From IMG/VR virus record IMGVR_UViG_3300050120_000279: a DNA stretch of 64,000 nucleotides. The stretch is one strand, 5' to 3'. Positions 4,051-45,640 of the stretch are shown piece after piece (position 1 is the stretch's first letter; each line of letters starts with the position of its first letter). The stretch is from a virus. Lineage: Duplodnaviria; Heunggongvirae; Uroviricota; Caudoviricetes. The position numbers were made by a program, and so were the translations under genes. The notes beneath the pieces were generated by a model. The model worked only from the letters and a program-made list of their open reading frames with translations. It was not told the origin of the DNA and searched no databases.

Positions 4051-4127
4051 GCGCGATTAGTTCAGTGGTTAGAACGGGAGACTCTAAATCTCTGTCGTCG
4101 GGGGTTCGAATCCCTCATCGCGCACCA
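4051..4127 (+). tRNA. suppressor tRNA, anticodon CTA (reads UAG amber)
   Basis: Acceptor GCGCGAT/ATCGCGC, D-arm GTTC-AGTGGTTA-GAAC, anticodon stem GGAGA/TCTCT with loop CTCTAAA (U33, CUA, A37), T-arm GGGGG-TTCGAAT-CCCTC, discriminator A, CCA encoded. Confidence 0.6.
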
Positions 4128-5169: not shown

Positions 5170-5663
5170 TGCAAGTACTCTACTGTAGTGACGGCAGAGA
5201 AGTTCTAGTGGATGATGAAGACTATCCATTGTTGAAGCGGCATACTTGGACATCTGTTCCAGGACGCAATACCTGGTATGCGCTGACGACATTAGGGGCG
5301 AAGACAGTGATGATGCATTCCCTGATCAGTCCAATGCCGTCTCCGTTTCATACAGATCACTGGGACGGCAATGGTCTAAACAACCAGAAGCTAAACCTTC
5401 GCCGAGCGACCATCTCTGAGAATGCAATGAACAGGGGACCAGAAGCTGGCAAGTTGTACAAAGGAACTCATGCCTATAAAGGCAAGTTCCGCGCAAAGAT
5501 TCAATACGAAGGTAAGCAGGTCAATCTCGGTACATTTGTCACCGAGGAGGAAGCTGCAAAGAGGTACGACGAAGCTGCGCTGGAATTCCACGGCAAGTTT
5601 GCTTATCTCAATTTCCCTTTGTGTTTACCAGTCTCGGGAGCCTCGGCTCCTCAACACACGTAA
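5169..5663 (+). mobile_element. HNH homing endonuclease with C-terminal AP2 DNA-binding domain
   Basis: HTDHWDGNGLNNQKLNLR (HNH_3-type) followed by the AP2-like YKGKFRAKIQYEGKQVNLGTFVTEEEAAKRYDEAALEFHGKFAYLNF. Confidence 0.7.
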
Positions 5664-5689
5664 GAGAAACAGACTATTTGTTCTGTACA

Positions 5690-5723
5690 CAAGACCTCGG
5701 TTCGATTCCGAGCGGGTCCACCA
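5690..5723 (+). other. tRNA-like 3' fragment (T-arm CTCGG-TTCGATT-CCGAG, acceptor 3' strand CGGGTCC, A, CCA) with no matching 5' half
   Basis: Canonical GGTTCGATTCC T-loop and encoded CCA; no complementary 5' acceptor strand within 120 nt upstream. Confidence 0.3.
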
Positions 5724-5814
5724 TAGAGCCTACCGGCTGCACGTTTGTCGGGATGGACAACATCTTCGGATGTCCCGAATTCATTCTGCCGACACAGTGT
5801 CCGGGTGTGAGTGA

Positions 5815-6033
5815 TTGCATTCGGTAAGTTCTATTGTGGGCCCGTCATGGTTTCGATTGGGTATTGGGTGGATAGCTGACGTGTCGGATCGGAAGCCCAC
5901 GTTACGGGAAGCCAAGACTACAACTGCCAAAAGCAATGTTGTTGCCGGTATCAAAGCCAAGGTGCTGTCTTTCGGCGCGCGCGTAAGCGCTGCGACCGCG
6001 ATGCCCACCATGGGTTTTGCCGCTGCTGCCTAA
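5815..6033 (+). CDS. hypothetical small protein (hydrophobic segment, Ala-rich C-terminus)
   Basis: 72 aa ORF in a 450-bp gap; followed by hairpin GCCCCG-n7-CGGGGC at about 6080..6098. Confidence 0.25.
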   Translation: MHSVSSIVGPSWFRLGIGWIADVSDRKPTLREAKTTTAKSNVVAGIKAKVLSFGARVSAATAMPTMGFAAAA

Positions 6034-6116
6034 GAAACAGCAACAGAGTTAGAGCCACTCTGTCCCTCAGAGCTCTCAAGCCCCGTGTAAAGCGGGGCAC
6101 TTCTATTGGAGGCAGC

Positions 6117-6395
6117 ATGACAGATCAGCTGTATATAGTTCTGCATACTCATCGATTTGGCAGCAGCACCTATGTTGTCAAGAGCGATCGTATGCCAACG
6201 GAACTTCAAGTAATCCGTTGTTTGGAACTCGACTATGAAGGGACTCGGGATGAGTCTATTGCCATCAATCTCTTGGAATCAAATGAGCCAGCGATTCTGG
6301 ATTACATTCCTGGATTAGATGATGCTGACTTCCGTTCCGAGGTGGACTACAACGGGACGGCTCTTCGTGATCATGAGGACGACGTCGATGGCTAA
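6117..6395 (+). CDS. hypothetical protein
   Basis: 92 aa ORF, GGAGG RBS. Confidence 0.4.
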   Translation: MTDQLYIVLHTHRFGSSTYVVKSDRMPTELQVIRCLELDYEGTRDESIAINLLESNEPAILDYIPGLDDADFRSEVDYNGTALRDHEDDVDG

Positions 6396-6687
6396 ACTGA
6401 TCCGGTTCGATGGTACGGAAGAGGAAGTCTTTCCGGCCGACAAGAAGAGTGGGTTCAGTCTGGGCGAGATGTATGCATTGCTTGGATGCGAGATGATCGA
6501 AGTGGTCTATCTCGCCAATGAGAAAGAGATCCTAATCATCGATGAAGAAGGCAAGCTCCGTCAGGATTGGCTTGAACGACTCAACGAGAAGGCTACTCAG
6601 TTGTTCTTCGAAGGGCGAGTTCCGAACGGTGACATCATCACCGGTAATGCTCTCCTGATAGTGGATGATGGTACAGAGTTTCAGTAA
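6388..6687 (+). CDS. hypothetical protein
   Basis: ATG overlapping the stop of the upstream gene; 99 aa. Confidence 0.4.
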   Translation: MAKLIRFDGTEEEVFPADKKSGFSLGEMYALLGCEMIEVVYLANEKEILIIDEEGKLRQDWLERLNEKATQLFFEGRVPNGDIITGNALLIVDDGTEFQ

Positions 6688-6693
6688 CAACTA

Positions 6694-6723
6694 AGCCCCG
6701 GTCAATTGATCGGGGCTTTTGCT
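6694..6723 (+). terminator. rho-independent terminator (AGCCCCG-loop-CGGGGCTTTTGCTTTG)
   Basis: GC-rich 6-7 bp stem followed by a T-rich tract directly after the stop at 6687. Confidence 0.55.
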
Positions 6724-6746
6724 TTGCCCACTCCAGTATTCCCCTG

Positions 6747-7013
6747 ATGGGAGGATCTCTAATGCCAGATGAAACTGAAGCTATCCGCCGCGGCCTACTG
6801 GCTGCGATCAATGACGAGCCCCAGGATCGTACAGCCCTCGAGCAGTTCTACGGCAAAGTGTGGACGTTAGCCGAATTGGGCGAAGAGTTTGTCATCAAGC
6901 AGTTTGCAGCTCCCCTCATCGTAGTCAAGCGTTTATCAGACGGCGTGCTCGGAACGATGTACTTCCAGCACAGCCCACGTTTCTACTTCAACTTCAAGGA
7001 AGACACGAAGTAA
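6747..7013 (+). CDS. hypothetical protein
   Basis: 88 aa ORF after terminator; GGGAGG RBS. Confidence 0.4.
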   Translation: MGGSLMPDETEAIRRGLLAAINDEPQDRTALEQFYGKVWTLAELGEEFVIKQFAAPLIVVKRLSDGVLGTMYFQHSPRFYFNFKEDTK

Positions 7014-8281
7014 TGGCAATCATTTACTACGATGGCTGCGACGCATGCGCACAGCGAAAATGGCTGAACGATGATCGAACAGATCTGGAAGCAGCTAATC
7101 CTTCTGTGATCAAACATACCTGCATTCTAGGGCAGGAAAGAAAGGCTTCAACAAGTATGGAAACGCACCCAATTCTGTTTCACATGGGAGCCAATGGTCT
7201 CCAACAATGGCGTGTTTGGACAGTCGGCGCTACCATCTTCTCCGAACACGGTCTCGTCGACGGGGCCAAGGTCAGTCACGAGAAGGTTTGTGAGTCCAAG
7301 AACGTCGGTCGTTCCAATGAGACGACACCTGAAGCTCAAGCAGTAGCGGAAGCTGCCGCTCTGTGGGTTCACAAGCGTGAGCGCAAGTACACGGAAGACC
7401 CTGCCGGAACCAAGACGGACATCTTCTTGCCCATGCTGGCGCCGAATGACAAGTGGCCAGAGACGAAGAAGCACATCAAGTATCCTGCGTTTCTTCAGCC
7501 CAAGTTGGACGGTAATCGCTCCGTCGGCCGGCTTGATGGCGATGAGGCTGTGCTGACCTCCCGTGAGGGCAAGCCCCAGGACTTCCTACCGCATATCAAT
7601 GCGGAGCTAAAGGCCCTGGGTCTCAGCGAGGACTATTTCCTCGATGGCGAGCTCTACTGTCATGGACAGAGCCTGCAGACGATCAACAGCTGGATCAAGA
7701 AGGCTCGGCCGGAGTCGATGCAGATCAAGTACCACATCTATGATCTCCCCGTCGTCAATGGCAAGACGGACCTTTCCCTAGCCGATCGCCTGGCGAATCT
7801 GGACCAGCTCTTTCTTGACACCTTCGATGGCAAGTGCCAGTTCCTTGAACTCGTACCAACCGAGATCGTCAATAACGAAGAGGAAGTGATGACCTGGTTC
7901 AAGCACTACCGCGACCTTGGCTACGAGGGAGTGATGGTCAAGAACACGGCCGGAAAGTACAAACAGAAGAGTCGCTCGAAGGACGTCGCCAAGGTCAAGC
8001 CGTTCGAAGACGCCGAATTCAAGGTGGTTGGTTTCACGGGCATGGAAGTCTACAAGGACGAAGTGCTCTGGATCTGCGAGACCAAGGAAGGCAGGACCTT
8101 CAAGGTCACGCCGAATGGTTCACGGGAACAGCGCAAGGAATGGTTTGCCACGGCTGACCAGTACATCGGTCGGATCCTGACGGTGACGTTCATGGGTTAT
8201 ACCGAGGACGGTATCCCGAACATCGCCAAGGGCAAAGCTTTCCGCCTGGAGAGTGATCTTCCTAAAGAGAGCGCGGCGTGA
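7013..8281 (+). CDS. ATP-dependent DNA ligase
   Basis: Adenylation motif I KLDGNR, motif III FLDGELY, motif IV YEGVMVK, motif V AKVKPFED; TAATG overlap with upstream gene. Confidence 0.85.
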   Translation: MAIIYYDGCDACAQRKWLNDDRTDLEAANPSVIKHTCILGQERKASTSMETHPILFHMGANGLQQWRVWTVGATIFSEHGLVDGAKVSHEKVCESKNVGRSNETTPEAQAVAEAAALWVHKRERKYTEDPAGTKTDIFLPMLAPNDKWPETKKHIKYPAFLQPKLDGNRSVGRLDGDEAVLTSREGKPQDFLPHINAELKALGLSEDYFLDGELYCHGQSLQTINSWIKKARPESMQIKYHIYDLPVVNGKTDLSLADRLANLDQLFLDTFDGKCQFLELVPTEIVNNEEEVMTWFKHYRDLGYEGVMVKNTAGKYKQKSRSKDVAKVKPFEDAEFKVVGFTGMEVYKDEVLWICETKEGRTFKVTPNGSREQRKEWFATADQYIGRILTVTFMGYTEDGIPNIAKGKAFRLESDLPKESAA

Positions 8282-18095: not shown

Positions 18096-18467
18096 ATGAA
18101 CAAGATGTTGTCCCTGGTCACTCACGCAATAGTGAGTGTACCGACTCAGAAGGATGCCAAGGCTAGTAACACCTATGCAATGGTGACTCTGTGCTTTGGA
18201 CCTGGTGACGACACAGCTCTGTCTGGTTTCAGATACACCCGCAACGAAGAAGGCAAGCCCATGTGGCAGGTTCCGATGTTCGATTCCTATCGAGACGAAC
18301 GCCATGTGAGCTTGCCGGTTTTCAAGGGGGCTCTGTTCCTGGACTGCACGCGGATCGCATCTGCCTCAGTCGCAGCCATTACGAAACAGCTCGGCAAATC
18401 CAGCTGGGGCAAACAGTATCACGTATTCAAAGACCGGGTTGAGGAAATCGACCTACCGAAAGAGTGA
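18096..18467 (+). CDS. hypothetical protein
   Basis: 123 aa ORF. Confidence 0.4.
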   Translation: MNKMLSLVTHAIVSVPTQKDAKASNTYAMVTLCFGPGDDTALSGFRYTRNEEGKPMWQVPMFDSYRDERHVSLPVFKGALFLDCTRIASASVAAITKQLGKSSWGKQYHVFKDRVEEIDLPKE

Positions 18468-18471
18468 AGAC

Positions 18472-19332
18472 ATGGCAAAGAAAGCAGTTGTAGAAATCTC
18501 CCCGAGCTCCAATGAGTTCACACGCTATCCGTACCTGGATTCCGAAGGTCGTCTGACAGAGCGCGCTCTCTTTCAGCTCAACAAGCCGTTCGATCCTATG
18601 GACCTGAAGTGGCTACCGACGGACGTCAAGCGTGAAGGAAATGACGAGACGGCTTTGGCGCTCGTCTACACCGACCCCCGCACCTATCACGAGCGTCTGG
18701 ATCTGGTGTTCGGACCCGGCAATTGGGGCAGTTCGATCTCCTTCACGACGGCCTCGTACTTCAAGGCGATCCCGAAGAAGATGGGCTACGGCGCCAACAA
18801 GGACACCGTCCTATCTGAGGCTCGGGATGTCACTGGTTTCAAGATCTTTGCCATCGTGAACCTTCAGATCGCCGGCCTTGGGACCAAGTCCTCGACCGGG
18901 GAAGAGGATACCAGCGACGGCAATGCGGCTACTTCGGCTGAGGCTCAGGCCTTCAAGCGCGCCTGCTCGCAGATCGGAATCGGAAGGTATTTCTACTCAT
19001 TCCCCCGGGAGCGCATGCCCTACGGCTATGGCAAGTTCAAGGAGTTCCCGAAGCTCCCTCCCTTCGCCATCCCCCAGGCTGAGTGCGCTCAGGAGGGCTT
19101 GCCGCTTCCAGAGAGCTTCACCTTCGTCAACAACAAGGGTGTCGACGAGACGTGGAGCAAGGCCAAGGTCATCGAGACCTCCCAGAAGTACTTCGGGAAG
19201 ATCTACAGTGGCCCGGTCCTGATCGAGAAGATCCAGGAACTCCGTGTTGAGAAGGAACGCAAGGCTGCGCAGACCAAGCCTGCTGCTGTCGTTCCGGCAG
19301 CTGAGACACCAGTAGAGGAGAAAGCCGCTTGA
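18472..19332 (+). CDS. Rad52/Sak-like single-strand annealing protein (candidate)
   Basis: AEAQAFKRACSQIGIGRYFY resembles the Rad52-family C-terminal core motif; start set to the ATG after GAGTGA RBS. Confidence 0.5.
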   Translation: MAKKAVVEISPSSNEFTRYPYLDSEGRLTERALFQLNKPFDPMDLKWLPTDVKREGNDETALALVYTDPRTYHERLDLVFGPGNWGSSISFTTASYFKAIPKKMGYGANKDTVLSEARDVTGFKIFAIVNLQIAGLGTKSSTGEEDTSDGNAATSAEAQAFKRACSQIGIGRYFYSFPRERMPYGYGKFKEFPKLPPFAIPQAECAQEGLPLPESFTFVNNKGVDETWSKAKVIETSQKYFGKIYSGPVLIEKIQELRVEKERKAAQTKPAAVVPAAETPVEEKAA

Positions 19333-20546
19333 AGTTCAAGATGAAAGTCGGCGAGCTCGTAGAGAAGATTTCGCAGGCGGCGATCACCATCGACATCAAG
19401 TCGGTGGACCAGCCGAACAGCAAAGTCTTTCTACGGGCCGCCCAAGGTAAGGACGGCAACGGTGTCGTCTATTTCTACTCGACCACACAGAAGGCTCGGA
19501 CGTTTCTCAAGAATGAAGCTGAGATCATTGAAGCGGGCGAAGGCCTGATCGATGCAGCCAAGCTCTTGGGTGGGCTCCAGGGCCGGGACTCCGAACTGAT
19601 TGCTCAGGTAGATGTGCAGGATAAGAAGATCATTGTGTCCATTGGGCGCAATCGCTTCCAGCTTCCCGTCTCTGCCGGCAGTGAGAGGTTGTCCAAGGAA
19701 GTGGATCTCCTCCCGTTCAAGGTACCCGCTCTGGCAACGATTCAGGCTGGTCTTCTGCTCGAGTTCATCCGCCGGACGACCTTCTGTATATCTTCGGCCA
19801 GCAACAGCCAGCAGAAGTTCGCCATGGATGTCCTTCATCTCAAGAAGAACGGGGCCGTCTACCAGGGTCAGGCGACGGATGGCAACATCTTCTCGCTGCA
19901 TTATGGCCCAGCCGAGGGTGAGAACGAGCTGCCCAGCCTTCTGATTCCGCAGGATGTACTGGATCCGCTCCAGAAGATCCTCGGGAAGCATAGGGATGAG
20001 GAGATCGAACTGATCAGCGCCTCCTATCCGGACACCGTTCAGGAACTCTTCTTCCGTGGGAAGGGCGTTCTGTTCGGATGCTCACTCCGCAGCGGCCGAT
20101 TCCCCAACATCAGTCTCCTCGCTGAACAGCACAAGCCCGCTTTCGAGTTCACTACGAATCGTGAAGAGCTGAAGGGTGCCCTGGTACGCGCGAGTAACTT
20201 CGTCGTCGAGGGGGTCCGGAACGTGCAGTTCCTCTTCGAGAACAAGGGCATCGTCAAGATCAAAGCGAACAATGACTACTCCGATATCAAGGAGGAGTTG
20301 GAGTTCGAGGTGATCTCTGGTGAGTTTGTGCCCATGCAGGTCACGCTTGCACTGGACTACATCGCCAATGTAGTGGGAACTCTGAAGGGTGACTCGATCA
20401 TCCTCGGCGTCCACCCGGAGAAGCTGAAGGCGTTGGTAGCACGCAGAGAGGATCGTACGGATGAAGAAGAGTCCAAGCTCATCGTCGGTTCCACTTACGC
20501 CATTAGCCCAGTCAAACCTACAGCACCAGGAACCAAGCATGGATGA
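19329..20546 (+). CDS. DNA polymerase sliding clamp (DnaN-like beta clamp)
   Basis: N-terminal MKFKM...ELVEKISQ...GRNRFQLPV pattern parallels DnaN (MKF..ERE.L...SGRSRFSL); about 400 aa, three-domain size. Confidence 0.6.
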   Translation: MKFKMKVGELVEKISQAAITIDIKSVDQPNSKVFLRAAQGKDGNGVVYFYSTTQKARTFLKNEAEIIEAGEGLIDAAKLLGGLQGRDSELIAQVDVQDKKIIVSIGRNRFQLPVSAGSERLSKEVDLLPFKVPALATIQAGLLLEFIRRTTFCISSASNSQQKFAMDVLHLKKNGAVYQGQATDGNIFSLHYGPAEGENELPSLLIPQDVLDPLQKILGKHRDEEIELISASYPDTVQELFFRGKGVLFGCSLRSGRFPNISLLAEQHKPAFEFTTNREELKGALVRASNFVVEGVRNVQFLFENKGIVKIKANNDYSDIKEELEFEVISGEFVPMQVTLALDYIANVVGTLKGDSIILGVHPEKLKALVARREDRTDEEESKLIVGSTYAISPVKPTAPGTKHG

Positions 20547-21747: not shown

Positions 21748-22010
21748 AGAAGTATGTCATCGAGTTTCTGTATTGCGATAACAACCAGTTGTATCAGGAA
21801 GATGTCGAACTGACTCTTGATCAGCGAGCACGCCTGCTGATCTTCCTCTGTGGACTTGAGACTAATGGTGTCATCGAGAGTACAGAAGAGGCCAGTGAGT
21901 TCATTTATGAATACACCGAACCCAACTTCATCAAGTTTGATCGACTAAAGGCTCTATGGAGCCAAGGATCGCTGATAGATTCTGCCGATATGTATGGAGT
22001 AATTCTATGA
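21744..22010 (+). CDS. hypothetical protein
   Basis: 88 aa ORF. Confidence 0.35.
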   Translation: MKKYVIEFLYCDNNQLYQEDVELTLDQRARLLIFLCGLETNGVIESTEEASEFIYEYTEPNFIKFDRLKALWSQGSLIDSADMYGVIL

Positions 22011-23065
22011 CGACCAGAAGAAACCTGAGTGTTGAACTGCGGCCTCAGCGCCTATCCGAGTTGGTTGGCCAGGAGGGTGTCGTTGCCAGTCTTCGACGCA
22101 ATTTCGGTGCCGGCAGCGTGCCCATTGGTATCCTGCTGACCGGCTCCTTTGGTCAGGGTAAAACGACGATCGCTCGAATTCTGGGTATGGCTTTCAACTG
22201 CACTCACCAGGTCCAGTTTGGTGAGACCTGTGTCGATTGTCTCGACAATGCAGACATGTTCAACATCTTTGAGCTGAACTGTGCGGACTTGACGACCATC
22301 GACCAGATGAAAGAGTTCCTGCCCAAACTCTTACCGTACCCGAACTTTGGTAAGTATCGGATCATCATCCTCGATGAAGCACAGCAGATGTCGGACAAGG
22401 CTCAGCAGATCTTGCTGACCCCGCTCGAGGAGCTGGACTCCCATAACATCTTTATCTTCTGCACATCGAACCCGGCAAAGATCAATCAGGCTGTGAAGGA
22501 CAGGTGTAAGCCGTTCGCTATTCCTGATCTGAAACCGGCCGGCGTGACTGCTCTGGTCAACAGGACCGTGGAGCTGGCTGTCTCCCGCTATGGAATGCCT
22601 TCCATCCCGATGGATCCTCTCATCGAGATGCTGCATACCGCTCAGGTGTTCAGCTCGCGCAATGTAGTCATGGCTGTCGAGATGTTCCTTGAAGGGTCGA
22701 CGGCGGCCCAGGCGATCGTCATCAAGGACGCGGGCGAGGTAGACTACTTCTCCCTCAATGCCGCTGTAGGGCAGGGTAAGTGGGAACCAGCTCGTAAGAT
22801 TCTCCAGATGGCCAAGCCGGCGGATGGTGCCCAGGTGAAGATGCGTCTCTCAGCATTCTTCCGGTACAAGTTGCTGGAAACCCCTGCTGGGAGCCGGGCC
22901 GATCTTCTGTCACTCTTTATAAGGGAGTTGGGAGATGCGGCCGCTGTCGAGTCTGGTCTTGAATTATCCCTTGTCGTCAGTGCGGTCTACCGGATCTGCC
23001 AGACGATCGAGAACGTGAAGAGCAAGACTTCCACTAACAATCCAGTGTTGATCAAGGCGGCGTAA
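22007..23065 (+). CDS. clamp loader AAA+ ATPase subunit (DnaX/RFC-like)
   Basis: Walker A GILLTGSFGQGKTT, Walker B IIILDEAQQMS, sensor region; located just downstream of the clamp gene. Confidence 0.65.
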   Translation: MTTRRNLSVELRPQRLSELVGQEGVVASLRRNFGAGSVPIGILLTGSFGQGKTTIARILGMAFNCTHQVQFGETCVDCLDNADMFNIFELNCADLTTIDQMKEFLPKLLPYPNFGKYRIIILDEAQQMSDKAQQILLTPLEELDSHNIFIFCTSNPAKINQAVKDRCKPFAIPDLKPAGVTALVNRTVELAVSRYGMPSIPMDPLIEMLHTAQVFSSRNVVMAVEMFLEGSTAAQAIVIKDAGEVDYFSLNAAVGQGKWEPARKILQMAKPADGAQVKMRLSAFFRYKLLETPAGSRADLLSLFIRELGDAAAVESGLELSLVVSAVYRICQTIENVKSKTSTNNPVLIKAA

Positions 23066-23991
23066 TGAAAGTACTTACAGACGAGCAGCTGACTCTCATG
23101 CAACAGCACGCAGACCAGCCGATTCCGCCGTTTGCGCCCCATCCTGATCGGCACTACCGGGCGGTGGACACCTACCTGGAGAGCTGGCCGAATGATCTTC
23201 GGTCACTCTCGGTAGCTCAGATCGATATCCCACTGACCCTGGAGGAGTGCACGATCCTGGGTTCGCAGATCGCGGACTTCGGACAGTCGTTTGCACCCGA
23301 ACCCCTACCAGCACATGATCTGATTGCGAAGGTGCAAACAGCTTCCGAGAAGATGCCTGGTCCGTTCTTCGTCCGCCTGGGTTCACGAAGCCCCAAGGAT
23401 GCCCTTTACTGGTTCAAGGACGAGATGAAGGTCGACAATGGAGAGGAAGCTCTCCAACTGCTGACCGCTAGCTCCGAACGTGTCTGGGAAGATCTCCGGA
23501 TCGGCCTGCACTTCGGGTATGCCTCGCACATCTTCCTTCGCCAGTGGACGGAGATGCCTGAATGGTCCGAGTTCCGGTGCTTCATGAAGGGCCGGAAGCT
23601 CATTGCTGTCTCGCAGTACTACTATCGCCAGGCGCACCGTGAACTGATCGAGGACTACGACGGCATCAAGTGGGCCATCGAACAGTTCTTCACCCGTCAG
23701 TTCAAGCATCTTTCACATCTGGATGACGTGGTCTTTGATGTCTTCGTCAAGCAGAAGACCAATGCCGGCACGTTCAATAGCGGTGTCTGTGGCGTGCCTC
23801 CTTGGCGGGCCTGGGAGATCAAGCTCCTCGAGATCAACCCATACTGGAACCTGTGCGATCCTTGCCTCTTCAACTGGAGTGAGCTGGATGCACTAGCCGA
23901 AGGCGGAACTGAATACCAGTTCCGTTTCATCGAGCAGACTGAGCAGTTGATAGGCCACAAGTATTCGGTCGTCAAAGCTGACCAGCTCTAA
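23065..23991 (+). CDS. Cdc123/D123-like ATP-grasp family protein (candidate)
   Basis: FFVRLGSRSPKDA and SEFRCFMKGRKLIAVSQYYY match the two hallmark motifs of the Cdc123 ATP-grasp clade. Confidence 0.5.
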   Translation: MKVLTDEQLTLMQQHADQPIPPFAPHPDRHYRAVDTYLESWPNDLRSLSVAQIDIPLTLEECTILGSQIADFGQSFAPEPLPAHDLIAKVQTASEKMPGPFFVRLGSRSPKDALYWFKDEMKVDNGEEALQLLTASSERVWEDLRIGLHFGYASHIFLRQWTEMPEWSEFRCFMKGRKLIAVSQYYYRQAHRELIEDYDGIKWAIEQFFTRQFKHLSHLDDVVFDVFVKQKTNAGTFNSGVCGVPPWRAWEIKLLEINPYWNLCDPCLFNWSELDALAEGGTEYQFRFIEQTEQLIGHKYSVVKADQL

Positions 23992-29848: not shown

Positions 29849-30598
29849 ATGCACAGCGGATTCTTCATCACGATCGAGGGCATCGACGGAATAGGCAAGT
29901 CTACCCAGATCAAACTCCTCGTGGATGCCATCAAGTCGGCAGGCCAGGCGGTATATCTAACCAAGGAACCTGGTGACAAGTTCACTGGCTCCATCATTGG
30001 CGCACCTATCCGGCATATGCTGTTCACCGATCCCGGTACGCAAGCTTTGGGTCCTGGCATTGGAGATCTACTTTTCCTCGCCGATCACATGCAGAATGTC
30101 TACGAAATCAAGAAGTATCTGGAGACCGGAGTTACGGTCATCTCAGATCGCTATGCTGATTCCCAGTTCGCCTATGCGGCCAGTCCTACTAAGAAGGCTC
30201 CTGCCTGGGCCAACAAGCTATTCGCAGAGCACTACGGGGTGATTCCCGACCTTACCCTCCTGATGGTCGCTCGTGGACCGAGTGCGCTATCTGATCCGTT
30301 TGCAGCAGAGGATATCGGATGGGCTTTACAGCGTGCTAATGCGCGCCGCGGCGTCGAAGCCGGTAAGCAAGACGGCAAAGCGTGGAATGATATCGAGGCC
30401 CAGCGAACCATTCAGAATGCGTATCTAACAGGACTGACTGGCAAAGCTCGCACTGCGATCATCAACATCTGGGATAGCAGCTCTGCCGAGACCGTCCATG
30501 AATTGATCATGGCTGCTATTCTCCTGGCACAGTCCCGTCACGGCGAAGGCAAGCAGCCCAACCTTCCACTTGTGGAATTGGTAGCCGAAGCGGCATAG
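29849..30598 (+). CDS. tmk: thymidylate kinase
   Basis: FITIEGIDGIGKSTQ P-loop, DRY motif (ISDRYADS), lid region. Confidence 0.8.
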   Translation: MHSGFFITIEGIDGIGKSTQIKLLVDAIKSAGQAVYLTKEPGDKFTGSIIGAPIRHMLFTDPGTQALGPGIGDLLFLADHMQNVYEIKKYLETGVTVISDRYADSQFAYAASPTKKAPAWANKLFAEHYGVIPDLTLLMVARGPSALSDPFAAEDIGWALQRANARRGVEAGKQDGKAWNDIEAQRTIQNAYLTGLTGKARTAIINIWDSSSAETVHELIMAAILLAQSRHGEGKQPNLPLVELVAEAA

Positions 30599-31941
30599 TG
30601 GCTCGTAGAGGACAGGTCTTCGAGCCGGTAGCGACCGCGCTCGAAGATCACGTACCGGTGAACTATAAAGTGATCGGTACCGCGGACTGGTTTGCCTCAC
30701 GGTTTGAACCAGATGCGGTTGATGAAGCCGACAAGATCGTTATCAGCAATGGTAGCGACCTGGCTCCCCACAAAGAATGGATCAGCCGGCAGAAGGCCAT
30801 CGGTGCGGATACCGAGACCACCGGCAGGATCGTCAAGGGCAACAAAGGCTACTCGATGAACCCCGTAAATGAAGGGACTCGACTAGTGCTGCTGCAACTC
30901 GGCACTGAAGAACGCACTTACCTGATTGATCCTGATCTCGTGGAGGAGTTCCGTGAACCTTTGGAGTCCACCAAGATCCTGAAGATCCTACAGAACGCTC
31001 TGTATGACTTCAAGTGGTTGATGACCAAGAAGAACGTCCACATGACTAGGATCTACGACACCATGCTGGCTGAGCAGGTACGCACTGCCGGCTTGATGGG
31101 TGTCAAGGTAGGCCTGGCGGATATGGCTCGCAAGTATGACCCCTATTACCTGATCTCGAAGGCCGTTCGCGGTCTCTTCGTAGAGCTGAATGAGGGGAAG
31201 ATGAGCCGGCCAATGGTGTACTACGCGGCTCGCGATATCCCGTTGATGTTCCCCATATTTCGGGCACAGCTCAAGGATCTGAAGGCCAATGGCCTGGAGA
31301 GCACCGCGCAGCTGGAGTTCGACTGCATCCCCTGTACGGCTGAGATGGAACTGGGCGGGGTCTTCTTGAAGACTGCACCTTTGGACCTGCTCATTCAGTA
31401 TTGGCAGGACAAGCAGGAGGCTATGGGCAATCAGATCCTCGCCATGTACAGCGAGGAGTTGAAGAACAGAGGTATCGGCAGTTCCTCTTTGATTCCCGAC
31501 CTCGATGAAGCATTTGACCTTGGCTCTGCCGCACAGAAACTCGTAGCCCTCCGAGCACTGGGCTTCGAGCTCGATGATACGAAGCGCGAAACCTTGATGG
31601 AACTCGATCACCCCATAGCGAAACTGCTTGGTGAGTATTCGAACGTCACCAAGATGACGTCTACGTACGGCGACAACATGCGACAGAAGATCAACGAGTT
31701 CACAGGCATGTGGCACCCACGATTCGCGCAGATGGGCTCCGGTGAGATGGAAGCTGCTTCTGGACGCGACAACACGACTACGACGGCGACCGGCCGTTAC
31801 GTTTCAGACGCACAGCAGTTCCCGCGCAAGACGGAGCGGTATGCCAATGAGAAGGACCAGGTCCTCCTGGGCCTTGTGGCAGATCACTTCAAAGCGCAGA
31901 TCGCTGATGTCGAGAAACGGGATAAGGACATAGCAGCATGA
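30598..31941 (+). CDS. family A DNA polymerase, N-terminal part (3'-5' exonuclease plus thumb region)
   Basis: Exo I GADTETTG, Exo III YAARDIPLMFPIF; ends before polymerase motif A. Confidence 0.8.
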   Translation: MARRGQVFEPVATALEDHVPVNYKVIGTADWFASRFEPDAVDEADKIVISNGSDLAPHKEWISRQKAIGADTETTGRIVKGNKGYSMNPVNEGTRLVLLQLGTEERTYLIDPDLVEEFREPLESTKILKILQNALYDFKWLMTKKNVHMTRIYDTMLAEQVRTAGLMGVKVGLADMARKYDPYYLISKAVRGLFVELNEGKMSRPMVYYAARDIPLMFPIFRAQLKDLKANGLESTAQLEFDCIPCTAEMELGGVFLKTAPLDLLIQYWQDKQEAMGNQILAMYSEELKNRGIGSSSLIPDLDEAFDLGSAAQKLVALRALGFELDDTKRETLMELDHPIAKLLGEYSNVTKMTSTYGDNMRQKINEFTGMWHPRFAQMGSGEMEAASGRDNTTTTATGRYVSDAQQFPRKTERYANEKDQVLLGLVADHFKAQIADVEKRDKDIAA

Positions 31942-32372
31942 GCAAGCAAGTTCAGCACGAAACAGTGAAGTTCAAGCTGTCTGATGTAGACGATGAGGAA
32001 CTCCGGACCAAACTCGAGCACAAGTTTCTCGTGTACGAGAACCTCAAGCGCGAGCAGGTCAAGGCAATCCGTGAGGCGCAGCGTGCTGCAGCCCGTGGAA
32101 CTATGGCATTGGCCGAGGTTCAGTTGTCGGAATCGGAGCTTCTGATCGAGGCTTCTGAAGCCTTCGATTTGATCTCTACCGAGCCGGCCTGGATCATCCG
32201 TCGTTCTCCCAATGGCGCGGTCATCTTCGAATGCATGCTCACTCAGACGGACATCCAGAACGTCCAGCGAGGGCAGATCAAGCAGATGAAGGAACAGATC
32301 AAGCCCACGGTGGATGACGACGACGATGAAGACGACTCTGCCTCGGATGAAGGTATGTTTCGCAAGGAATAA
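31938..32372 (+). CDS. hypothetical protein inserted between the two polymerase genes (acidic C-terminus)
   Basis: 144 aa ORF, ATGA overlap with upstream gene; ends DDDDDEDDSASDEGMFRKE. Confidence 0.4.
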   Translation: MSKQVQHETVKFKLSDVDDEELRTKLEHKFLVYENLKREQVKAIREAQRAAARGTMALAEVQLSESELLIEASEAFDLISTEPAWIIRRSPNGAVIFECMLTQTDIQNVQRGQIKQMKEQIKPTVDDDDDEDDSASDEGMFRKE

Positions 32373-32375
32373 CAC

Positions 32376-33329
32376 ATGGACGTTGGAGATCTCGTAAAGC
32401 TTGATGTACGAGACGGCGTCGATATCATGGGCTCCTTCCTCGGGATCTTCCAGGACCGTGAATGGTACTGGAGTCTCGAGGACAAGGTAACACTCTGGCG
32501 GGTACCGGACATTAGAGAGTGCATTGCGGCCCAGCCGGGCCACAAGGTTCTCTCTGCCGACTACAGTCAGATCGAAGTAAAGCTGATGGCGCACCTGTCC
32601 AGGGATCCAGTCCTGATAGCGGCCATCAATTCGAAGAAGGATATCCATTGCTTTACTGCGACGGAAGTCTTCGGGAAGAAGCTGAACTTCACCTACGAAG
32701 ACATCTTCAATGCGACCCAGCATAAGGACGCAAAGAAGCATCCTCGGCACAAGGAACTCAAGCGACTTCGCTCGAACATCAAGGTAGTGACGTTCGGTGT
32801 CCCCTATGGCGCCGGTGCTAAACGCGTCGCCGCAATGACAGGAATGACGGACGTCGAAGCTCAGGCGTTCATCGATGAATACTTCCTGAAGTTCCAAGTA
32901 TTGAAGGCCTGGCTCGAAGCCCAGGGTAATTTGGCTCTCAAAGAAGGATACACAGCGACACCGAACGGCCGCCGCCGTTTCTACACGCTGCCTCCCAAGG
33001 GAGACCCAGATTACGACGGTCAGTTGGCGCAGATCAGGCGCTGGGCAGGTAACCACCCGATCCAGGCAGCTAATGCCGACATGCTCAAGCTCGCGATTCG
33101 CAAGATTTATCTAGCGATCCGTGGGGGAATAGCGACCGGCCCTAAGCTGTACGACGCAAGGTTGTCTCTGGTCGTGCATGACGAAATCGTAATGATCTGT
33201 GCGGATAAGGATGTTGATGCCGTATCCAAGATCATCGACCGGGCAATGACGGAAGCGTACGACGAGATCATTCCAGATATCTGGAACACGATCGTAGTTG
33301 TGGCTGACGACATCTGGGAGAAGGTCTAG
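32376..33329 (+). CDS. family A DNA polymerase, C-terminal part (palm/fingers with motifs A, B, C)
   Basis: Motif A LSADYSQIEVKLMAHLS, motif B RLRSNIKVVTFGVPYGAGAKRV, motif C LVVHDEIVMIC. Confidence 0.8.
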   Translation: MDVGDLVKLDVRDGVDIMGSFLGIFQDREWYWSLEDKVTLWRVPDIRECIAAQPGHKVLSADYSQIEVKLMAHLSRDPVLIAAINSKKDIHCFTATEVFGKKLNFTYEDIFNATQHKDAKKHPRHKELKRLRSNIKVVTFGVPYGAGAKRVAAMTGMTDVEAQAFIDEYFLKFQVLKAWLEAQGNLALKEGYTATPNGRRRFYTLPPKGDPDYDGQLAQIRRWAGNHPIQAANADMLKLAIRKIYLAIRGGIATGPKLYDARLSLVVHDEIVMICADKDVDAVSKIIDRAMTEAYDEIIPDIWNTIVVVADDIWEKV

Positions 33330-34353: not shown

Positions 34354-34506
34354 ATGGCTACCCTAAAGAGCTTGGCGGTAGTATTCGCCGTCGTTCTAGC
34401 CGCTGTCATTATTGACAGCGGTTTTCTTTATCACCAGGCGTCGACAGGGAGGAAGCTCCCGTTCAAGTTGAGCCTCATTCCCAAGCTTGGTGGAGAGTTA
34501 TCGTGA
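34354..34506 (+). CDS. small membrane protein
   Basis: 50 aa hydrophobic ORF with AAAGGAAG RBS. Confidence 0.25.
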   Translation: MATLKSLAVVFAVVLAAVIIDSGFLYHQASTGRKLPFKLSLIPKLGGELS

Positions 34507-44419: not shown

Positions 44420-45640
44420 ATGACAACAAAGAAGGCAGCAAAGAAAGTCGCAAAGAAGAAGGAACCAGCAGAAGTTCTCACGATGGAAGAGATCTTCGAG
44501 AAGCAGCTCGCTGGGTTCGGTCTGGCCGGAGCTATGCGCCTGGCAGATGCCTACGATAACAACTACGAGGTCATCTCCTCGGGTTGGCCTGGAGTGGATC
44601 GTCTGATTAGTGACGATGCTGCGCTGCAGGGTATTCCCAAGCAGGTTCACATCGAGGTTTTCTCGGAGGTCGAGCATGCCGGCAAGACATCATTCACCCT
44701 GGCTATTGGAGTCAAGTGGCAGTATCTCGGTCTCAAGGTCGGCGTTGTAGACATTGAGCCGTCGATCACACTGGCCTACCTGAAACAGCTCGGGTTCATC
44801 ACGACCAAGGCTGAAGCTGAAGCCAAGAGTAAAGAGCTTGGGCGGACGATCTACGCTGTACGTTTGCTGCAGCCTCAGATCAAAGCCGATGCCTGCGAAA
44901 CCGAGATGGTCTATGTCGACAAGGTCCTGGATGTAGTCTCGATCGCTTCGAACCTGTTCGATCTTCTGATCATTGACTCTGTCGATGCACTCGTCTCAGA
45001 AGCGGACTCGATCAAAACAACGACCGAAGCCGACATGATGGGTGGCGTGTCCAAGCAGATCAAGTCTTTCATGCGGAAGAACACAAAGAACCGCGCGACG
45101 ATTCTGTACGTAAATCACATGAGCCAAGGCCTCGGCCAGTACGCGAAGGCGTACACCACCGGCGGCAAGGCGATCCCGCGGTACAGTACTCTGCGCTTCA
45201 AGATCGACCGTGTCGAGATGATTGTTCCTGTAAAGGGACAGGATCCGATCGGTTTCGTGAGTAAGATCACGATGATCAAGAACCGGCTCGGCCCTATCGG
45301 TCGATCGACTCTCCTGTACTACATCTTTGGTGAGGGCTTCTCGGTCAACTACGACTACTTCCTGACGGCGCTGAAGCTGGGTGTCATCACGAAGAAGGGT
45401 GGATGGCATTACTTCGGTCCGGATGCAGATAACTCGCTGCTTACGGTCAATGGCGAGCACAACATGTACCTGGCGTTGCGTGATGACCATCCGGAGCTCA
45501 TGGCAGATGTAAAGGCAATCATTGATGGTGTTGACGCTGAACCTGCAATCGAAGAAGAAGTCTCTGAAGAGGATCTGCTTGCCGGTATGGACGCAGTCGA
45601 TGAAGAGGAAGATGTTGAACCAGCAGCAGCTGCAGCTTAG
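44420..45640 (+). CDS. RecA/UvsX-like recombinase
   Basis: ISSGWPGVDRL...VHIEVFSEVEHAGKTSFTLAIG mirrors RecA (iSTGs..LD..LG.GG.P.GRi.EiyGpESSGKTTLaL); acidic C-terminal tail. Confidence 0.7.
   Translation: MTTKKAAKKVAKKKEPAEVLTMEEIFEKQLAGFGLAGAMRLADAYDNNYEVISSGWPGVDRLISDDAALQGIPKQVHIEVFSEVEHAGKTSFTLAIGVKWQYLGLKVGVVDIEPSITLAYLKQLGFITTKAEAEAKSKELGRTIYAVRLLQPQIKADACETEMVYVDKVLDVVSIASNLFDLLIIDSVDALVSEADSIKTTTEADMMGGVSKQIKSFMRKNTKNRATILYVNHMSQGLGQYAKAYTTGGKAIPRYSTLRFKIDRVEMIVPVKGQDPIGFVSKITMIKNRLGPIGRSTLLYYIFGEGFSVNYDYFLTALKLGVITKKGGWHYFGPDADNSLLTVNGEHNMYLALRDDHPELMADVKAIIDGVDAEPAIEEEVSEEDLLAGMDAVDEEEDVEPAAAAA

What the first reader, a model, noticed from the sequence alone, without database searches (positions are those of the whole stretch)
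30598..33329. Family A DNA polymerase split into two genes by a 144-aa ORF
The 3'-5' exonuclease motifs (DTETTG, YAARD) are in 30598..31941. Polymerase motifs A (DYSQIE), B (K...YG) and C (VHDE) are in 32376..33329. Between them lies an independently coupled ORF (31938..32372) with no endonuclease or intein features. Either the polymerase works as a two-subunit enzyme, or this is a degenerate mobile-element insertion.
Basis: partly seen in the sequence, partly recalled or inferred. Interest (0 to 1): 0.55.

Follow-up and report, generated by a model that had tools for sequence, protein, structure and literature searches.

The report
Three-gene split family A DNA polymerase
An uncultured phage encodes its replicative DNA polymerase as two separate proteins, cut just before the catalytic site, with a conserved small helical protein of unknown fold always encoded between them; the layout is inherited across a whole phage lineage, so it looks like a working multi-subunit enzyme, not a broken gene.

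Summary
ORF 30598-31941 carries the 3'-5' exonuclease, the thumb and the TGR/QQFP segment. ORF 32376-33329 carries motifs A, B and C. A 144-aa ORF (31938-32372) lies between them. The break is clean: profile positions resume within 3-15 residues. It falls about 16 residues before the motif A aspartate.

It is neither an artefact nor a recent insertion. The 120 best database relatives of the C part are all stand-alone proteins of 216-360 aa. All 10 relatives with the region sequenced have N part, middle gene, C part in that order. The middle ORF belongs to a conserved family of about 70 clusters at 50% identity, always stand-alone. It has a long helix, a beta-hairpin, a second helix and an acidic tail with an [LM][FY] pair. 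It has no endonuclease, intein or other known domain or fold. No ribozyme was found and the reading-frame relations vary.

The most likely reading is an ancient gene fission giving a non-covalently assembled polymerase, with the middle protein as a lineage-specific partner. That role is inferred, not shown. Split family A polymerases are already known, but with different break points and unrelated intervening ORFs. This is a new variant of a known kind, of moderate interest.

The parts
30598..31941 (+). Polymerase N subunit (447 aa): 3'-5' proofreading exonuclease, thumb, and the TGR...QQFP primer-binding segment of the polymerase domain. It ends in a lineage-specific helical tail of about 36 aa.
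   Evidence: PF01612 E 6e-15 and PF00476 profile positions 59-132. PHROG 17 positions 651-991. NF011539 positions 44-374. D71, E73, D137, Y209 and D213 are invariant in 7 genomes.
30808..30825 (+). Exo I motif DTETTG (N-part residues 71-76).
   Evidence: Read directly from the translation. Invariant in alignment A4.
31219..31236 (+). Exo III motif YYAARD (N-part residues 208-213).
   Evidence: Y209 and D213 are invariant.
31831..31938 (+). N-part tail (residues 412-447, TERYANEKDQVLLGLVADHFKAQIADVEKRDKDIAA). It is an extension after QQFPRK that unsplit polymerases lack.
   Evidence: Conserved 'ERY + amphipathic helix' in all relatives. Absent from the unsplit cr108_1 and PA-SR01 polymerases. 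Predicted helical in the fused model, pLDDT 69-81.
31938..32372 (+). Middle protein (144 aa). It belongs to a conserved stand-alone family: long helix 20-72, helix 77-81, beta-hairpin 84-101, helix 103-121, disordered acidic tail.
   Evidence: Homologues lie between the two polymerase halves in all 10 related loci checked. 69 clusters were found by profile search. 70 representatives at 50% identity, all stand-alone. AF2 pLDDT 86.6. No Pfam, PHROG, NCBIfam or PDB hit.
32301..32369 (+). Acidic C-terminal tail of the middle protein (residues 122-144) with the MF pair (DEGMFRKE). Possibly a short linear docking motif.
   Evidence: Across 124 family members the last 35 residues average 10.4 acidic and 2.7 basic residues, and 104 of 124 carry x[LM][FY] there. 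Disordered in the model.
32376..33329 (+). Polymerase C subunit (317 aa): palm and fingers with motifs A, B and C, preceded by a lineage-specific head of about 45 aa.
   Evidence: PF00476 E 9e-51. Taq 594-816 aligned to residues 46-300. NF004397 positions 649-872. Core pLDDT above 90.
32376..32510 (+). C-part head (residues 1-45), ending in the conserved REWYW...WRVPD motif just before the canonical IRE-CIAA strand.
   Evidence: W[RK][VI]PxIRE is present in 88 of 115 full-length C-part relatives, at a median offset of 42. Absent from unsplit polymerases. Low confidence (pLDDT below 50) in the fused model.
32559..32576 (+). Motif A DYSQIE (C-part residues 62-67).
   Evidence: Present in 110 of 120 relatives.
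32769..32810 (+). Motif B RSNIKVVTFGVPYG (C-part residues 132-145). Phe occupies the position equivalent to Pol I F762.
   Evidence: The pattern R...K...FG..YG is present in 119 of 120 relatives.
33174..33185 (+). Motif C VHDE (C-part residues 267-270).
   Evidence: Present in 116 of 120 relatives.
34398..34423 (+). First strong + strand intrinsic-terminator-like hairpin downstream. No terminator lies between the three genes, so they sit in one operon.
19329..20546 (+). Context only: phage-encoded DnaN-type beta sliding clamp.
   Evidence: TIGR00663 E 5e-18 over profile positions 1-357 of 367. PHROG 947 E 1e-25.
21956..23065 (+). Context only: DnaX-like clamp-loader ATPase.
   Evidence: TIGR02397 E 2e-37. 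PF13177 E 2e-18. An orthologue lies upstream of the split polymerase in L013.

Best explanation
This is a naturally and anciently split family A replicative DNA polymerase.

The gene underwent fission inside the polymerase domain, in the short loop between the QNIP-type primer-binding segment and the beta-strand that leads into motif A. The enzyme is now made as two polypeptides:
- exonuclease + thumb (447 aa);
- palm/fingers with motifs A, B and C (317 aa).

These must associate non-covalently to form one active site with proofreading. Each new terminus has gained a conserved extension: a helix of about 36 aa on the N part and a beta-rich head of about 45 aa on the C part.

A conserved 140-160-aa coiled-coil-type protein with an acidic [LM][FY]-bearing tail is always encoded between the halves and is translationally coupled to them. 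The most likely role of this middle protein is as a lineage-specific partner of the polymerase. It may help hold the two halves together through its long helices and hairpin. It may also tether the enzyme to another replisome component through its tail.

Shown: the split, its position, its conservation, the conservation and novelty of the middle protein, and the absence of splicing elements. Inferred: non-covalent assembly of the halves, and any role of the middle protein.
For: 1. The break is clean on three independent profiles and against Taq.

2. All 120 best relatives of the C part are stand-alone proteins of 216-360 aa carrying only PF00476. They come from JGI, ENA, Logan and NCBI assemblies, so this is not an assembly artefact.

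3. Gene order N part, middle, C part holds in L001-L007, L009, L010 and L013, down to 42-50% polymerase identity.

4. Exonuclease motifs I-III and polymerase motifs A-C are conserved, so both halves are under purifying selection.

5. Middle-protein homology: phmmer E 1e-51 to 7e-13; HMM E 2e-28 and 2.5e-43 for L009 and L010; 69 clusters; 70 representatives at 50% identity, none fused; invariant V41, R45, W85 and E98; model pLDDT 86.6.

6. The tail and head extensions are conserved as protein and are absent from unsplit relatives.

7. ATGA overlap, a 3-nt spacer, separate Shine-Dalgarno sequences and no internal terminator.

8. Published precedents that split polymerases and split RNR function:
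- S-SBP1-type exo/pol split in T7-like cyanophages (PMC10201439);
- MEP401/402, cultured phages with a similarly split PolA (PMC10580990);
- phage Aeh1 NrdA and T4-like gp43, as cited in PMC2677866.
Against: No experiment or confident complex model supports physical assembly. My fused AF2 model (N tail + middle + C part) gave pTM 0.55, a disordered C head and lower confidence for the middle protein. It therefore showed no docking. That run had a shallow, unpaired alignment, lacked the body of the N part, and returned no coordinates.

The middle gene's conserved position could simply reflect the strong synteny of the whole replication module (Tmk, N part, middle, C part, HU, SNF2) and not a functional link.

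In L006 and L009 unrelated ORFs sit next to the middle gene between the halves. Strict adjacency to both halves is therefore not required.

No fused (Rosetta-stone) form was found.
Confidence: 0.72

Rival explanations
1. The middle protein is a passenger. The polymerase is a functional two-subunit enzyme, but the intervening gene has an unrelated job (regulation, anti-defence, a recombination accessory). It keeps its place only because the replication module is highly syntenic.
For: - No detectable similarity to any polymerase accessory protein.
- No docking in the fused model.
- Other unrelated ORFs can occupy the same inter-half space.
- In MEP401 an unrelated 77-aa ORF sits at the analogous place.
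- Neighbouring genes (Tmk, HU, SNF2 helicase) are also syntenic.
Against: - It is present in every one of the 10 relatives checked, while other neighbours vary. Tmk is replaced by dUTPase in L007 and L013. HU is missing in L006, L009, L010 and L013.
- Its start usually overlaps the N-part stop (ATGA), which favours stoichiometric co-translation.
- The conserved N tail and C head imply a docking partner at the break.
Confidence: 0.25
2. The arrangement is the scar of a mobile-element invasion. A free-standing homing endonuclease, an intron-borne ORF or a split intein hit the conserved pre-motif-A site. The middle ORF is the degenerate or domesticated remnant of that element.
For: - Homing endonucleases are known to fracture phage replication genes at conserved sites, with or without inteins (PMC2677866).
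- Group I introns interrupt phage PolA genes (references in PMC10580990).
- The break lies next to the most conserved motif of the enzyme.
- The inter-half space behaves as an insertion hot spot in L006 and L009.
- MEP401-type phages were split independently within about 15 residues of the same site.
Against: - No HNH, GIY-YIG, LAGLIDADG, Vsr or Hint domain in any of 66 family members.
- No Rfam intron or ribozyme at E up to 10.
- The tail (36 aa) plus the head (45 aa) are too short for a Hint domain. There is no Cys/Ser at the start of the tail and no HN + Cys/Ser/Thr junction at the end of the head (sequence).
- No flanking direct repeats.
- The middle protein is under clear purifying selection across the clade, so it is not degenerating.
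Confidence: 0.15
3. A single polypeptide is produced after all, by RNA splicing, protein trans-splicing, ribosomal frameshifting or bypassing, or stop-codon read-through. Alternatively the split is a sequencing or assembly error or a pseudogene.
For: - In this window the middle ORF and the C part are in the same frame, separated only by TAA CAC.
- The genome carries an amber-suppressor-type tRNA.
Against: - The stops are TGA and TAA, not TAG.
- Frame relations differ among relatives: a 2-nt gap in L001, a 1-nt overlap in L004, L005 and L013, and up to 1.9 kb with four extra ORFs in L006.
- The N-part frame runs into several stops after its TGA.
- No ribozyme and no intein blocks.
- The same split is seen in more than 100 independent assemblies.
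- All catalytic residues are conserved.
Confidence: 0.03

Closest known systems
MEP401/MEP402-type split PolA of OM43 (Methylophilales) phages, Zobellviridae-related (PMC10580990; OP830906)
   Same: A family A polymerase encoded by two genes. The N gene carries the exonuclease plus the first part of PF00476 and the C gene carries the rest. A small ORF of unknown function lies between them, all on one strand. The break is inside the polymerase domain just upstream of motif A.
   Different: - The break point is not identical. MEP401 gp13 ends after the strand IKTLFLSRYGE and gp15 starts MILNADAKALEW, about 10-15 residues later than here.
- The termini have no added tail or head.
- gp14 is 77 aa and unrelated to the middle family (0.3 bits).
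- The polymerases are only distantly related, and the phages are 43-kb podoviruses, not genomes of 85-226 kb.

The two splits are most simply read as independent events.
S-SBP1 / S-TIP37-type split PolA of T7-like cyanophages, clade B (Czernecki et al. 2023, PMC10201439; PMC12695635)
   Same: A natural fission of a phage PolA into two adjacent genes. The products are predicted to reassemble into the canonical fold. The split is fixed in a clade.
   Different: There the cut lies between the exonuclease and polymerase domains. No intervening gene was described for those splits in the passages read. Here the cut is inside the polymerase domain, with the thumb and the catalytic palm on different chains, and a conserved third gene lies between the halves.
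'Fractured genes' and intein-less endonuclease-fractured genes (Dassa et al. 2009, PMC2677866; Aeh1 nrdA/mobE; T4-like gp43 A/B)
   Same: An essential replication enzyme is broken into two co-oriented genes at a conserved site. A free-standing ORF lies between them and its end is coupled to the downstream half. The halves are expected to reconstitute activity.
   Different: No split-intein halves and no recognisable endonuclease. The intervening protein is a conserved non-nuclease family that is co-inherited with the split across a deep clade.
Group I intron-interrupted phage PolA genes (LUZ24-like 'DNA polymerase part I/II', T7-like phiI/W31, SPO1-type; cited in PMC10580990, PMC3890496)
   Same: They are annotated as two polymerase ORFs with an intervening ORF.
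   Different: Those are spliced at the RNA level into one mRNA. Here no intron RNA is detectable, and the intervening 435 nt are wholly occupied by a conserved coding sequence.

Membership tests
Family A DNA polymerase with proofreading (Pol I / T7 gp5 type) | 3'-5' exonuclease domain with Exo I (DxE), Exo II (NxxxD/YD) and Exo III (YxxxD) motifs | tested here: met
   PF01612 E 6e-15. DTETTG, QNALYDF and YYAARD are present and invariant in 7 genomes.
Family A DNA polymerase with proofreading (Pol I / T7 gp5 type) | Polymerase motifs A (DYSQIE), B (RxxxKxxxFGxxYG) and C (HDE) | tested here: met
   PF00476 E 9e-51. Alignment to Taq 594-816. Motif counts are 110, 119 and 116 of 120 relatives.
Family A DNA polymerase with proofreading (Pol I / T7 gp5 type) | Single polypeptide carrying the exonuclease, thumb, palm and fingers | tested here: not met
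   Two ORFs separated by a third. The break corresponds to the Pol I loop around residues 683-688, which is Taq 588-593.
Fractured gene (split intein + free-standing homing endonuclease; Dassa 2009) | N-intein at the C-terminus of the upstream half and C-intein at the N-terminus of the downstream half | tested here: not met
   No Hint or intein Pfam hit at E up to 1. The tail is 36 aa and the head 45 aa. There is no Cys/Ser first residue and no HN-Cys/Ser/Thr junction. The Cys in RECIAA is not conserved in L006 or L007.
Fractured gene (split intein + free-standing homing endonuclease; Dassa 2009) | Intervening gene encodes a homing endonuclease (GIY-YIG, HNH, Vsr-like, LAGLIDADG) | tested here: not met
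Fractured gene (split intein + free-standing homing endonuclease; Dassa 2009) | Both halves and the insert are on the same strand, in the original order, at one locus | tested here: met
Group I intron-interrupted polymerase gene | Self-splicing ribozyme core flanking or containing the intervening ORF | tested here: not met
   Rfam at E up to 10 on 31500-32800 gave only two chance hits. There were no intron hits at gathering threshold over the whole window. The whole gap is conserved coding sequence. Splicing itself cannot be tested with these tools.
S-SBP1-type exo/pol split PolA (Czernecki 2023) | Break between the exonuclease domain and the polymerase domain | tested here: not met
   The N part extends to PF00476 position 132 and contains the TGR...QQFP segment.
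MEP401-type split PolA with small intervening ORF | Same break point and homologous intervening ORF | tested here: not met
   The break is 10-15 residues later in MEP401. gp14 scores 0.3 bits against the middle-family HMM.
Beta-clamp-binding protein (speculative role for the middle protein's tail) | Clamp-binding motif of the QL[SD]LF / QxxMF type that binds the hydrophobic cleft of DnaN | tested here: inconclusive
   The tail has a conserved x[LM][FY] pair in 104 of 124 members but lacks the conserved Gln/Leu of the canonical motif. A phage DnaN and a DnaX-like protein are encoded in the window. Binding cannot be tested here.

The most novel reading that the evidence does not exclude
The middle protein is a true third subunit of a family A holoenzyme. 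Its long helix and hairpin would clasp the helical tail of the N subunit and the beta head of the C subunit, making the split polymerase assembly-competent. Its acidic [LM][FY] tail would tether the enzyme to the phage's own DnaN-type sliding clamp, which a DnaX-like loader would load. If so, this phage lineage has built a Pol III-like, clamp-dependent, multi-subunit replicase around a Pol I-type catalytic core.
Probability: 0.2. Interest if true: 0.75.

Novelty: new variant of a known kind. Interest (0 to 1): 0.5.

Why it matters
Family A polymerases are the textbook single-chain polymerases and the workhorses of biotechnology. Natural splits show where the fold tolerates a chain break.

This break puts the DNA-gripping thumb and proofreading site on one chain and the catalytic palm and fingers on another. 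It has been stable across a deep lineage of large uncultured phages. Two things follow.

- A natural design for split-polymerase engineering. It offers conditional reconstitution and a docking module made of the tail, the head and perhaps the middle protein.
- A testable case of how a monomeric replicase becomes multi-subunit. An orphan protein family is tied to the break, and the lineage co-encodes a beta clamp and a clamp loader.

A practical point for annotation pipelines: the 317-aa and 447-aa 'DNA polymerase I' fragments in metagenomes are not truncated genes and should be annotated as subunits.

Tried and rejected
1. Nucleotide search of the phage collection found no match. Protein searches found only relatives below 35% identity, so the lineage has no cultured member in that collection.

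2. IMG/VR scans with the C part and the middle ORF found no relatives.

3. A single-sequence search with the middle ORF found only itself. This was misleading. Synteny and a profile then recovered the family.

- The structure tool refuses concatenated database rows.
- MAFFT misplaces rows when three families are aligned under a fused query.
- The only workable design was the last 60 aa of the N part + middle + C part, with 8 middle rows and 45 C rows. It gave pTM 0.55 with a disordered head and is inconclusive.
- No coordinates are returned, so contacts could not be read.

5. Fold searches of the middle-protein model found only generic long-helix matches:
- PDB by Foldseek, best E 0.39;
- BFVD, best E 0.065.

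6. A PDB profile search gave only E of 0.17 or worse (Cgi121, PER2), judged to be noise.

7. The read-through idea (middle and C part in the same frame here) was rejected because the frames differ in relatives.

The metagenome scan with the clamp protein found nothing.

9. UvsY-like, SSB-like or nuclease identity for the middle protein was considered and rejected for lack of any sequence or fold signal.


Full report
**1. The observation**

The window contains three tightly packed + strand ORFs at exactly the coordinates given: 30598-31941 (447 aa, GTG start), 31938-32372 (144 aa) and 32376-33329 (317 aa).

- The first ORF matches the 3'-5' exonuclease domain PF01612 (residues 65-223, E 6e-15) and the first part of the family A polymerase domain PF00476 (profile positions 59-132).
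- The third ORF matches the rest of PF00476 (E 9e-51).
- The middle ORF matches nothing in Pfam, PHROGs or NCBIfam.
- The middle ORF starts in an ATGA overlap with the N-part stop. The C-part ATG follows the middle ORF's TAA after three bases. Both have an AAGGA Shine-Dalgarno sequence 8-9 nt upstream.
- No + strand terminator and no above-chance promoter lies between the genes. The first strong terminator-like hairpin is at 34398-34423.

**2. Where the polymerase is cut**

Three independent profiles show a clean break with nothing missing.
- PHROG 17: N part to position 991, C part from 995.
- NF011539: N part to 374, C part from 389.
- Taq polymerase: aligns from residue 594 to C-part residue 46.

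The N part ends with ATGRYVSDAQQFPRK. By my reading, from knowledge of Pol I, this is the counterpart of TGRLSS..NLQNIPVR. A 36-aa extension follows it.

The C part begins with a 45-aa extension. It then continues with IRECIAAQPGHKVLSADYSQIE, the strand that leads into the motif A aspartate.

So the exonuclease, the thumb and the primer-binding segment are on one chain, and the catalytic palm and fingers are on the other. Two unsplit, distantly related phage polymerases (crAss-like cr108_1 and Pseudanabaena phage PA-SR01) join these two segments by a loop of only 2-8 residues. The tail and the head are therefore additions specific to the split lineage.

**3. The split is real, old and fixed**

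The large protein database returned 587 relatives of the C part at E up to 1e-10. The best 120 (100% down to about 45% identity) are all stand-alone proteins of 216-360 aa with PF00476 only. They come from JGI, ENA, Logan and NCBI assemblies on contigs up to 226 kb.

I fetched the genomic neighbourhood of ten relatives spanning 42-77% polymerase identity: L001-L007, L009, L010 and L013. Every one has an N part of 432-448 aa, then a gene of 139-157 aa, then a C part of 296-343 aa, in that order on one strand.

Exonuclease motifs I-III are invariant in seven aligned genomes. Motifs A, B and C are present in 110, 119 and 116 of 120 relatives. Assembly error, a recent frameshift and a pseudogene are excluded.

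**4. The middle ORF is a conserved protein family**

A single-sequence search found only the ORF itself. The syntenic ORFs are nevertheless clearly homologous:
- 48-56% identity in the close relatives;
- phmmer E 1e-51 to 7e-13;
- HMM E 2e-28 and 2.5e-43 for L009 and L010.

A profile search recovered 69 clusters of 101-160 aa without any Pfam domain. For 35 of these, the longest-contig length equals that of one of the listed C-part proteins.

An exhaustive HMMER scan of 1.84 billion representatives found 70 clusters. All are stand-alone, and none is fused to a polymerase or to anything else. The only exception is one 1876-aa hit at E 1e-3 with six stretches, which I take to be coiled-coil noise.

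V41, R45, W85 and E98 are invariant in 66 sequences.

AlphaFold2 gives a confident model (mean pLDDT 86.6):
- a 53-residue helix (20-72);
- a short helix;
- a beta-hairpin (84-101);
- a helix (103-121);
- a disordered acidic tail.

Across 124 members the last 35 residues average 10.4 acidic and 2.7 basic residues. 104 members carry an x[LM][FY] pair there, with a median of 13 residues following it.

**5. Splicing and recoding are excluded as far as sequence can tell**

- Rfam at E up to 10 found no intron or ribozyme in 31500-32800, and none at gathering threshold over the whole window.
- The 435 nt between the halves are entirely conserved coding sequence.
- The tail and the head together (about 81 aa) are too short for a Hint domain. 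They lack the Cys/Ser first residue and the HN-Cys/Ser/Thr junction.
- In this window the middle ORF and the C part share a frame (TAA CAC ATG). In L001 the gap is 2 nt. In L004, L005 and L013 the genes overlap by 1 nt. In L006 three further ORFs (about 1.3 kb) separate the middle gene from the C part. In L009 an unrelated 118-aa ORF separates the N part from the middle gene. Read-through, frameshifting and bypassing are therefore not conserved options.
- No direct repeats flank the middle ORF.

**6. How it most likely works**

The best-supported reading is an obligate heteromeric family A replicase produced by gene fission. The two catalytic chains are translated from one operon and assemble non-covalently. 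This has been proposed from models for the S-SBP1-type exo/pol split (PMC10201439). PMC2677866 cites experiments showing that the two parts of the split NrdA of phage Aeh1 form a functional ribonucleotide reductase.

Conserved extensions on both new termini argue that the break has been stabilised by added docking surfaces.

The middle protein is the only gene that is always found between the halves, while other neighbours vary. Its start usually overlaps the N-part stop. Its isolated 53-residue helix is the kind of element that needs a partner helix. I therefore consider it more likely than not (about 0.55-0.6) to be a polymerase-associated subunit.

That role is an inference. My one attempt to test it structurally was inconclusive. 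The fused query was the last 60 aa of the N part, the middle protein and the C part. It gave pTM 0.55, a confident polymerase core, and a disordered head and linker. The alignment was shallow and unpaired because of tool constraints.

**7. Replisome context**

The window is the replication module of a large uncultured phage. The record holding the identical C and middle proteins is 85,452 bp. It encodes:
- ligase, CCA-adding enzyme, a RecD/Dda-like helicase and a Rad52-like protein;
- ribonucleotide reductase, a MazG-like protein, thymidylate kinase and HU;
- an SNF2 helicase, an AAA+ ATPase, UvsX and a primase-helicase.

It also encodes a full-length DnaN-type beta clamp (TIGR00663, E 5e-18) and a DnaX-like clamp-loader ATPase (TIGR02397, E 2e-37). 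No ORF in the window is long enough for a typical Pol III alpha subunit.

A DnaX-like orthologue lies about 8 kb upstream of the split polymerase in the distant relative L013.

A family A polymerase next to a beta clamp and a clamp loader is unusual. The middle protein's acidic [LM][FY] tail is a candidate tether, but it lacks the Gln/Leu of canonical clamp-binding motifs. I rate this idea at about 0.2.

**8. Comparison with what is known**

Split family A polymerases are documented.
- *T7-like cyanophages of the S-SBP1/S-TIP37 type* are cut between the exonuclease and polymerase domains (PMC10201439, PMC12695635). That is a different site, and no intervening gene was described for them in the passages I read.
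[quoted passage not shown] I fetched MEP401. Its break lies 10-15 residues later, after the strand that precedes motif A. Its termini carry no extensions, and its 77-aa gp14 is unrelated to the family here. This is the closest analogue in form, and most simply an independent event in the same region of the fold.
- *'Fractured genes'* (PMC2677866) need split inteins and an endonuclease. Both features were tested here and not met.
- *Intron-interrupted PolA genes* need a ribozyme, which was not found.

The finding is therefore a new variant of a known kind. It has a new break point and conserved terminal extensions. An orphan protein family is co-inherited with the break, and the arrangement is fixed across a broad uncultured lineage. 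None of the papers found in five searches of the held library describes this lineage or the middle protein.

**9. Verdict**

- The 'two-subunit enzyme' reading is supported.
- The 'degenerate mobile element' reading is not supported for the present state and is untestable as an origin.
- Interest is moderate (0.5). It is not a new principle, but it is a clean, conserved and experimentally tractable case of a monomeric polymerase turned multi-subunit.
- There is an outside chance (about 0.2) that the middle protein reveals a clamp-linked PolA holoenzyme.

Noticed in passing
window 5656-6033 (+): A permuted (two-piece type) tmRNA gene in a phage genome. Rfam RF04321 scores 76 bits against a gathering score of 47. 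ARAGORN also calls it, with tag peptide AATAMPTMGFAAAA. From my own knowledge, permuted tmRNAs are typical of Alphaproteobacteria and a few other lineages, so this may hint at the host.
   Followed up: partly
window 4051-4127 (+); also 1717-1804 and 2688-2764: A tRNA with anticodon CTA, an amber-suppressor type that ARAGORN labels tRNA-Pyl, next to tRNA-Leu(gag) and tRNA-Arg(tct). This may point to TAG read-through or recoding somewhere in this phage. It does not affect the polymerase genes, whose stops are TGA and TAA.
   Followed up: partly
window 19329-20546 and 21956-23065 (+); L013 533-1615: The phage encodes a full-length DnaN-type beta clamp and a DnaX-like clamp-loader ATPase. The only polymerase in the window is the split family A enzyme, and no ORF is long enough for a typical Pol III alpha subunit. 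The DnaX-like gene is also upstream of the split polymerase in a distant relative on a 216-kb contig.
   Followed up: partly
L006/L014 (3080-5014 of L006) and L009 4238-4594: The space between the polymerase halves collects extra small ORFs in some relatives. L006 has a 64-aa ORF plus three ORFs of 145, 116 and 149 aa, and the first and third look paralogous. L009 has a 118-aa ORF. None is related to the middle family, so this looks like a local insertion hot spot.
   Followed up: partly
window 23065-23991 (+): A D123/Cdc123-family protein (PF07065, E 3e-30) lies directly after the DnaX-like gene. This is an unusual domain for a phage replication module.
   Followed up: no
window 32370-32378: The middle ORF and the C part are in the same reading frame, separated only by TAA CAC. 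A single read-through would fuse them. The frame relation is not conserved in relatives, so it is probably coincidental.
   Followed up: yes
L008 (MEP401, OP830906) 6111-8221: The cultured OM43 phage MEP401 has a family A polymerase split within about 15 residues of the same site, but with an unrelated 77-aa intervening ORF. This suggests the pre-motif-A loop region is a recurrent fission point in phage PolA.
   Followed up: yes
window 18439-19332 and 44420-45640 (+): A Rad52/Rad22-like annealing protein (PF04098, E 1.6e-4, just above threshold) and a UvsX-like recombinase are both encoded, so the replication module carries two recombination systems.
   Followed up: no
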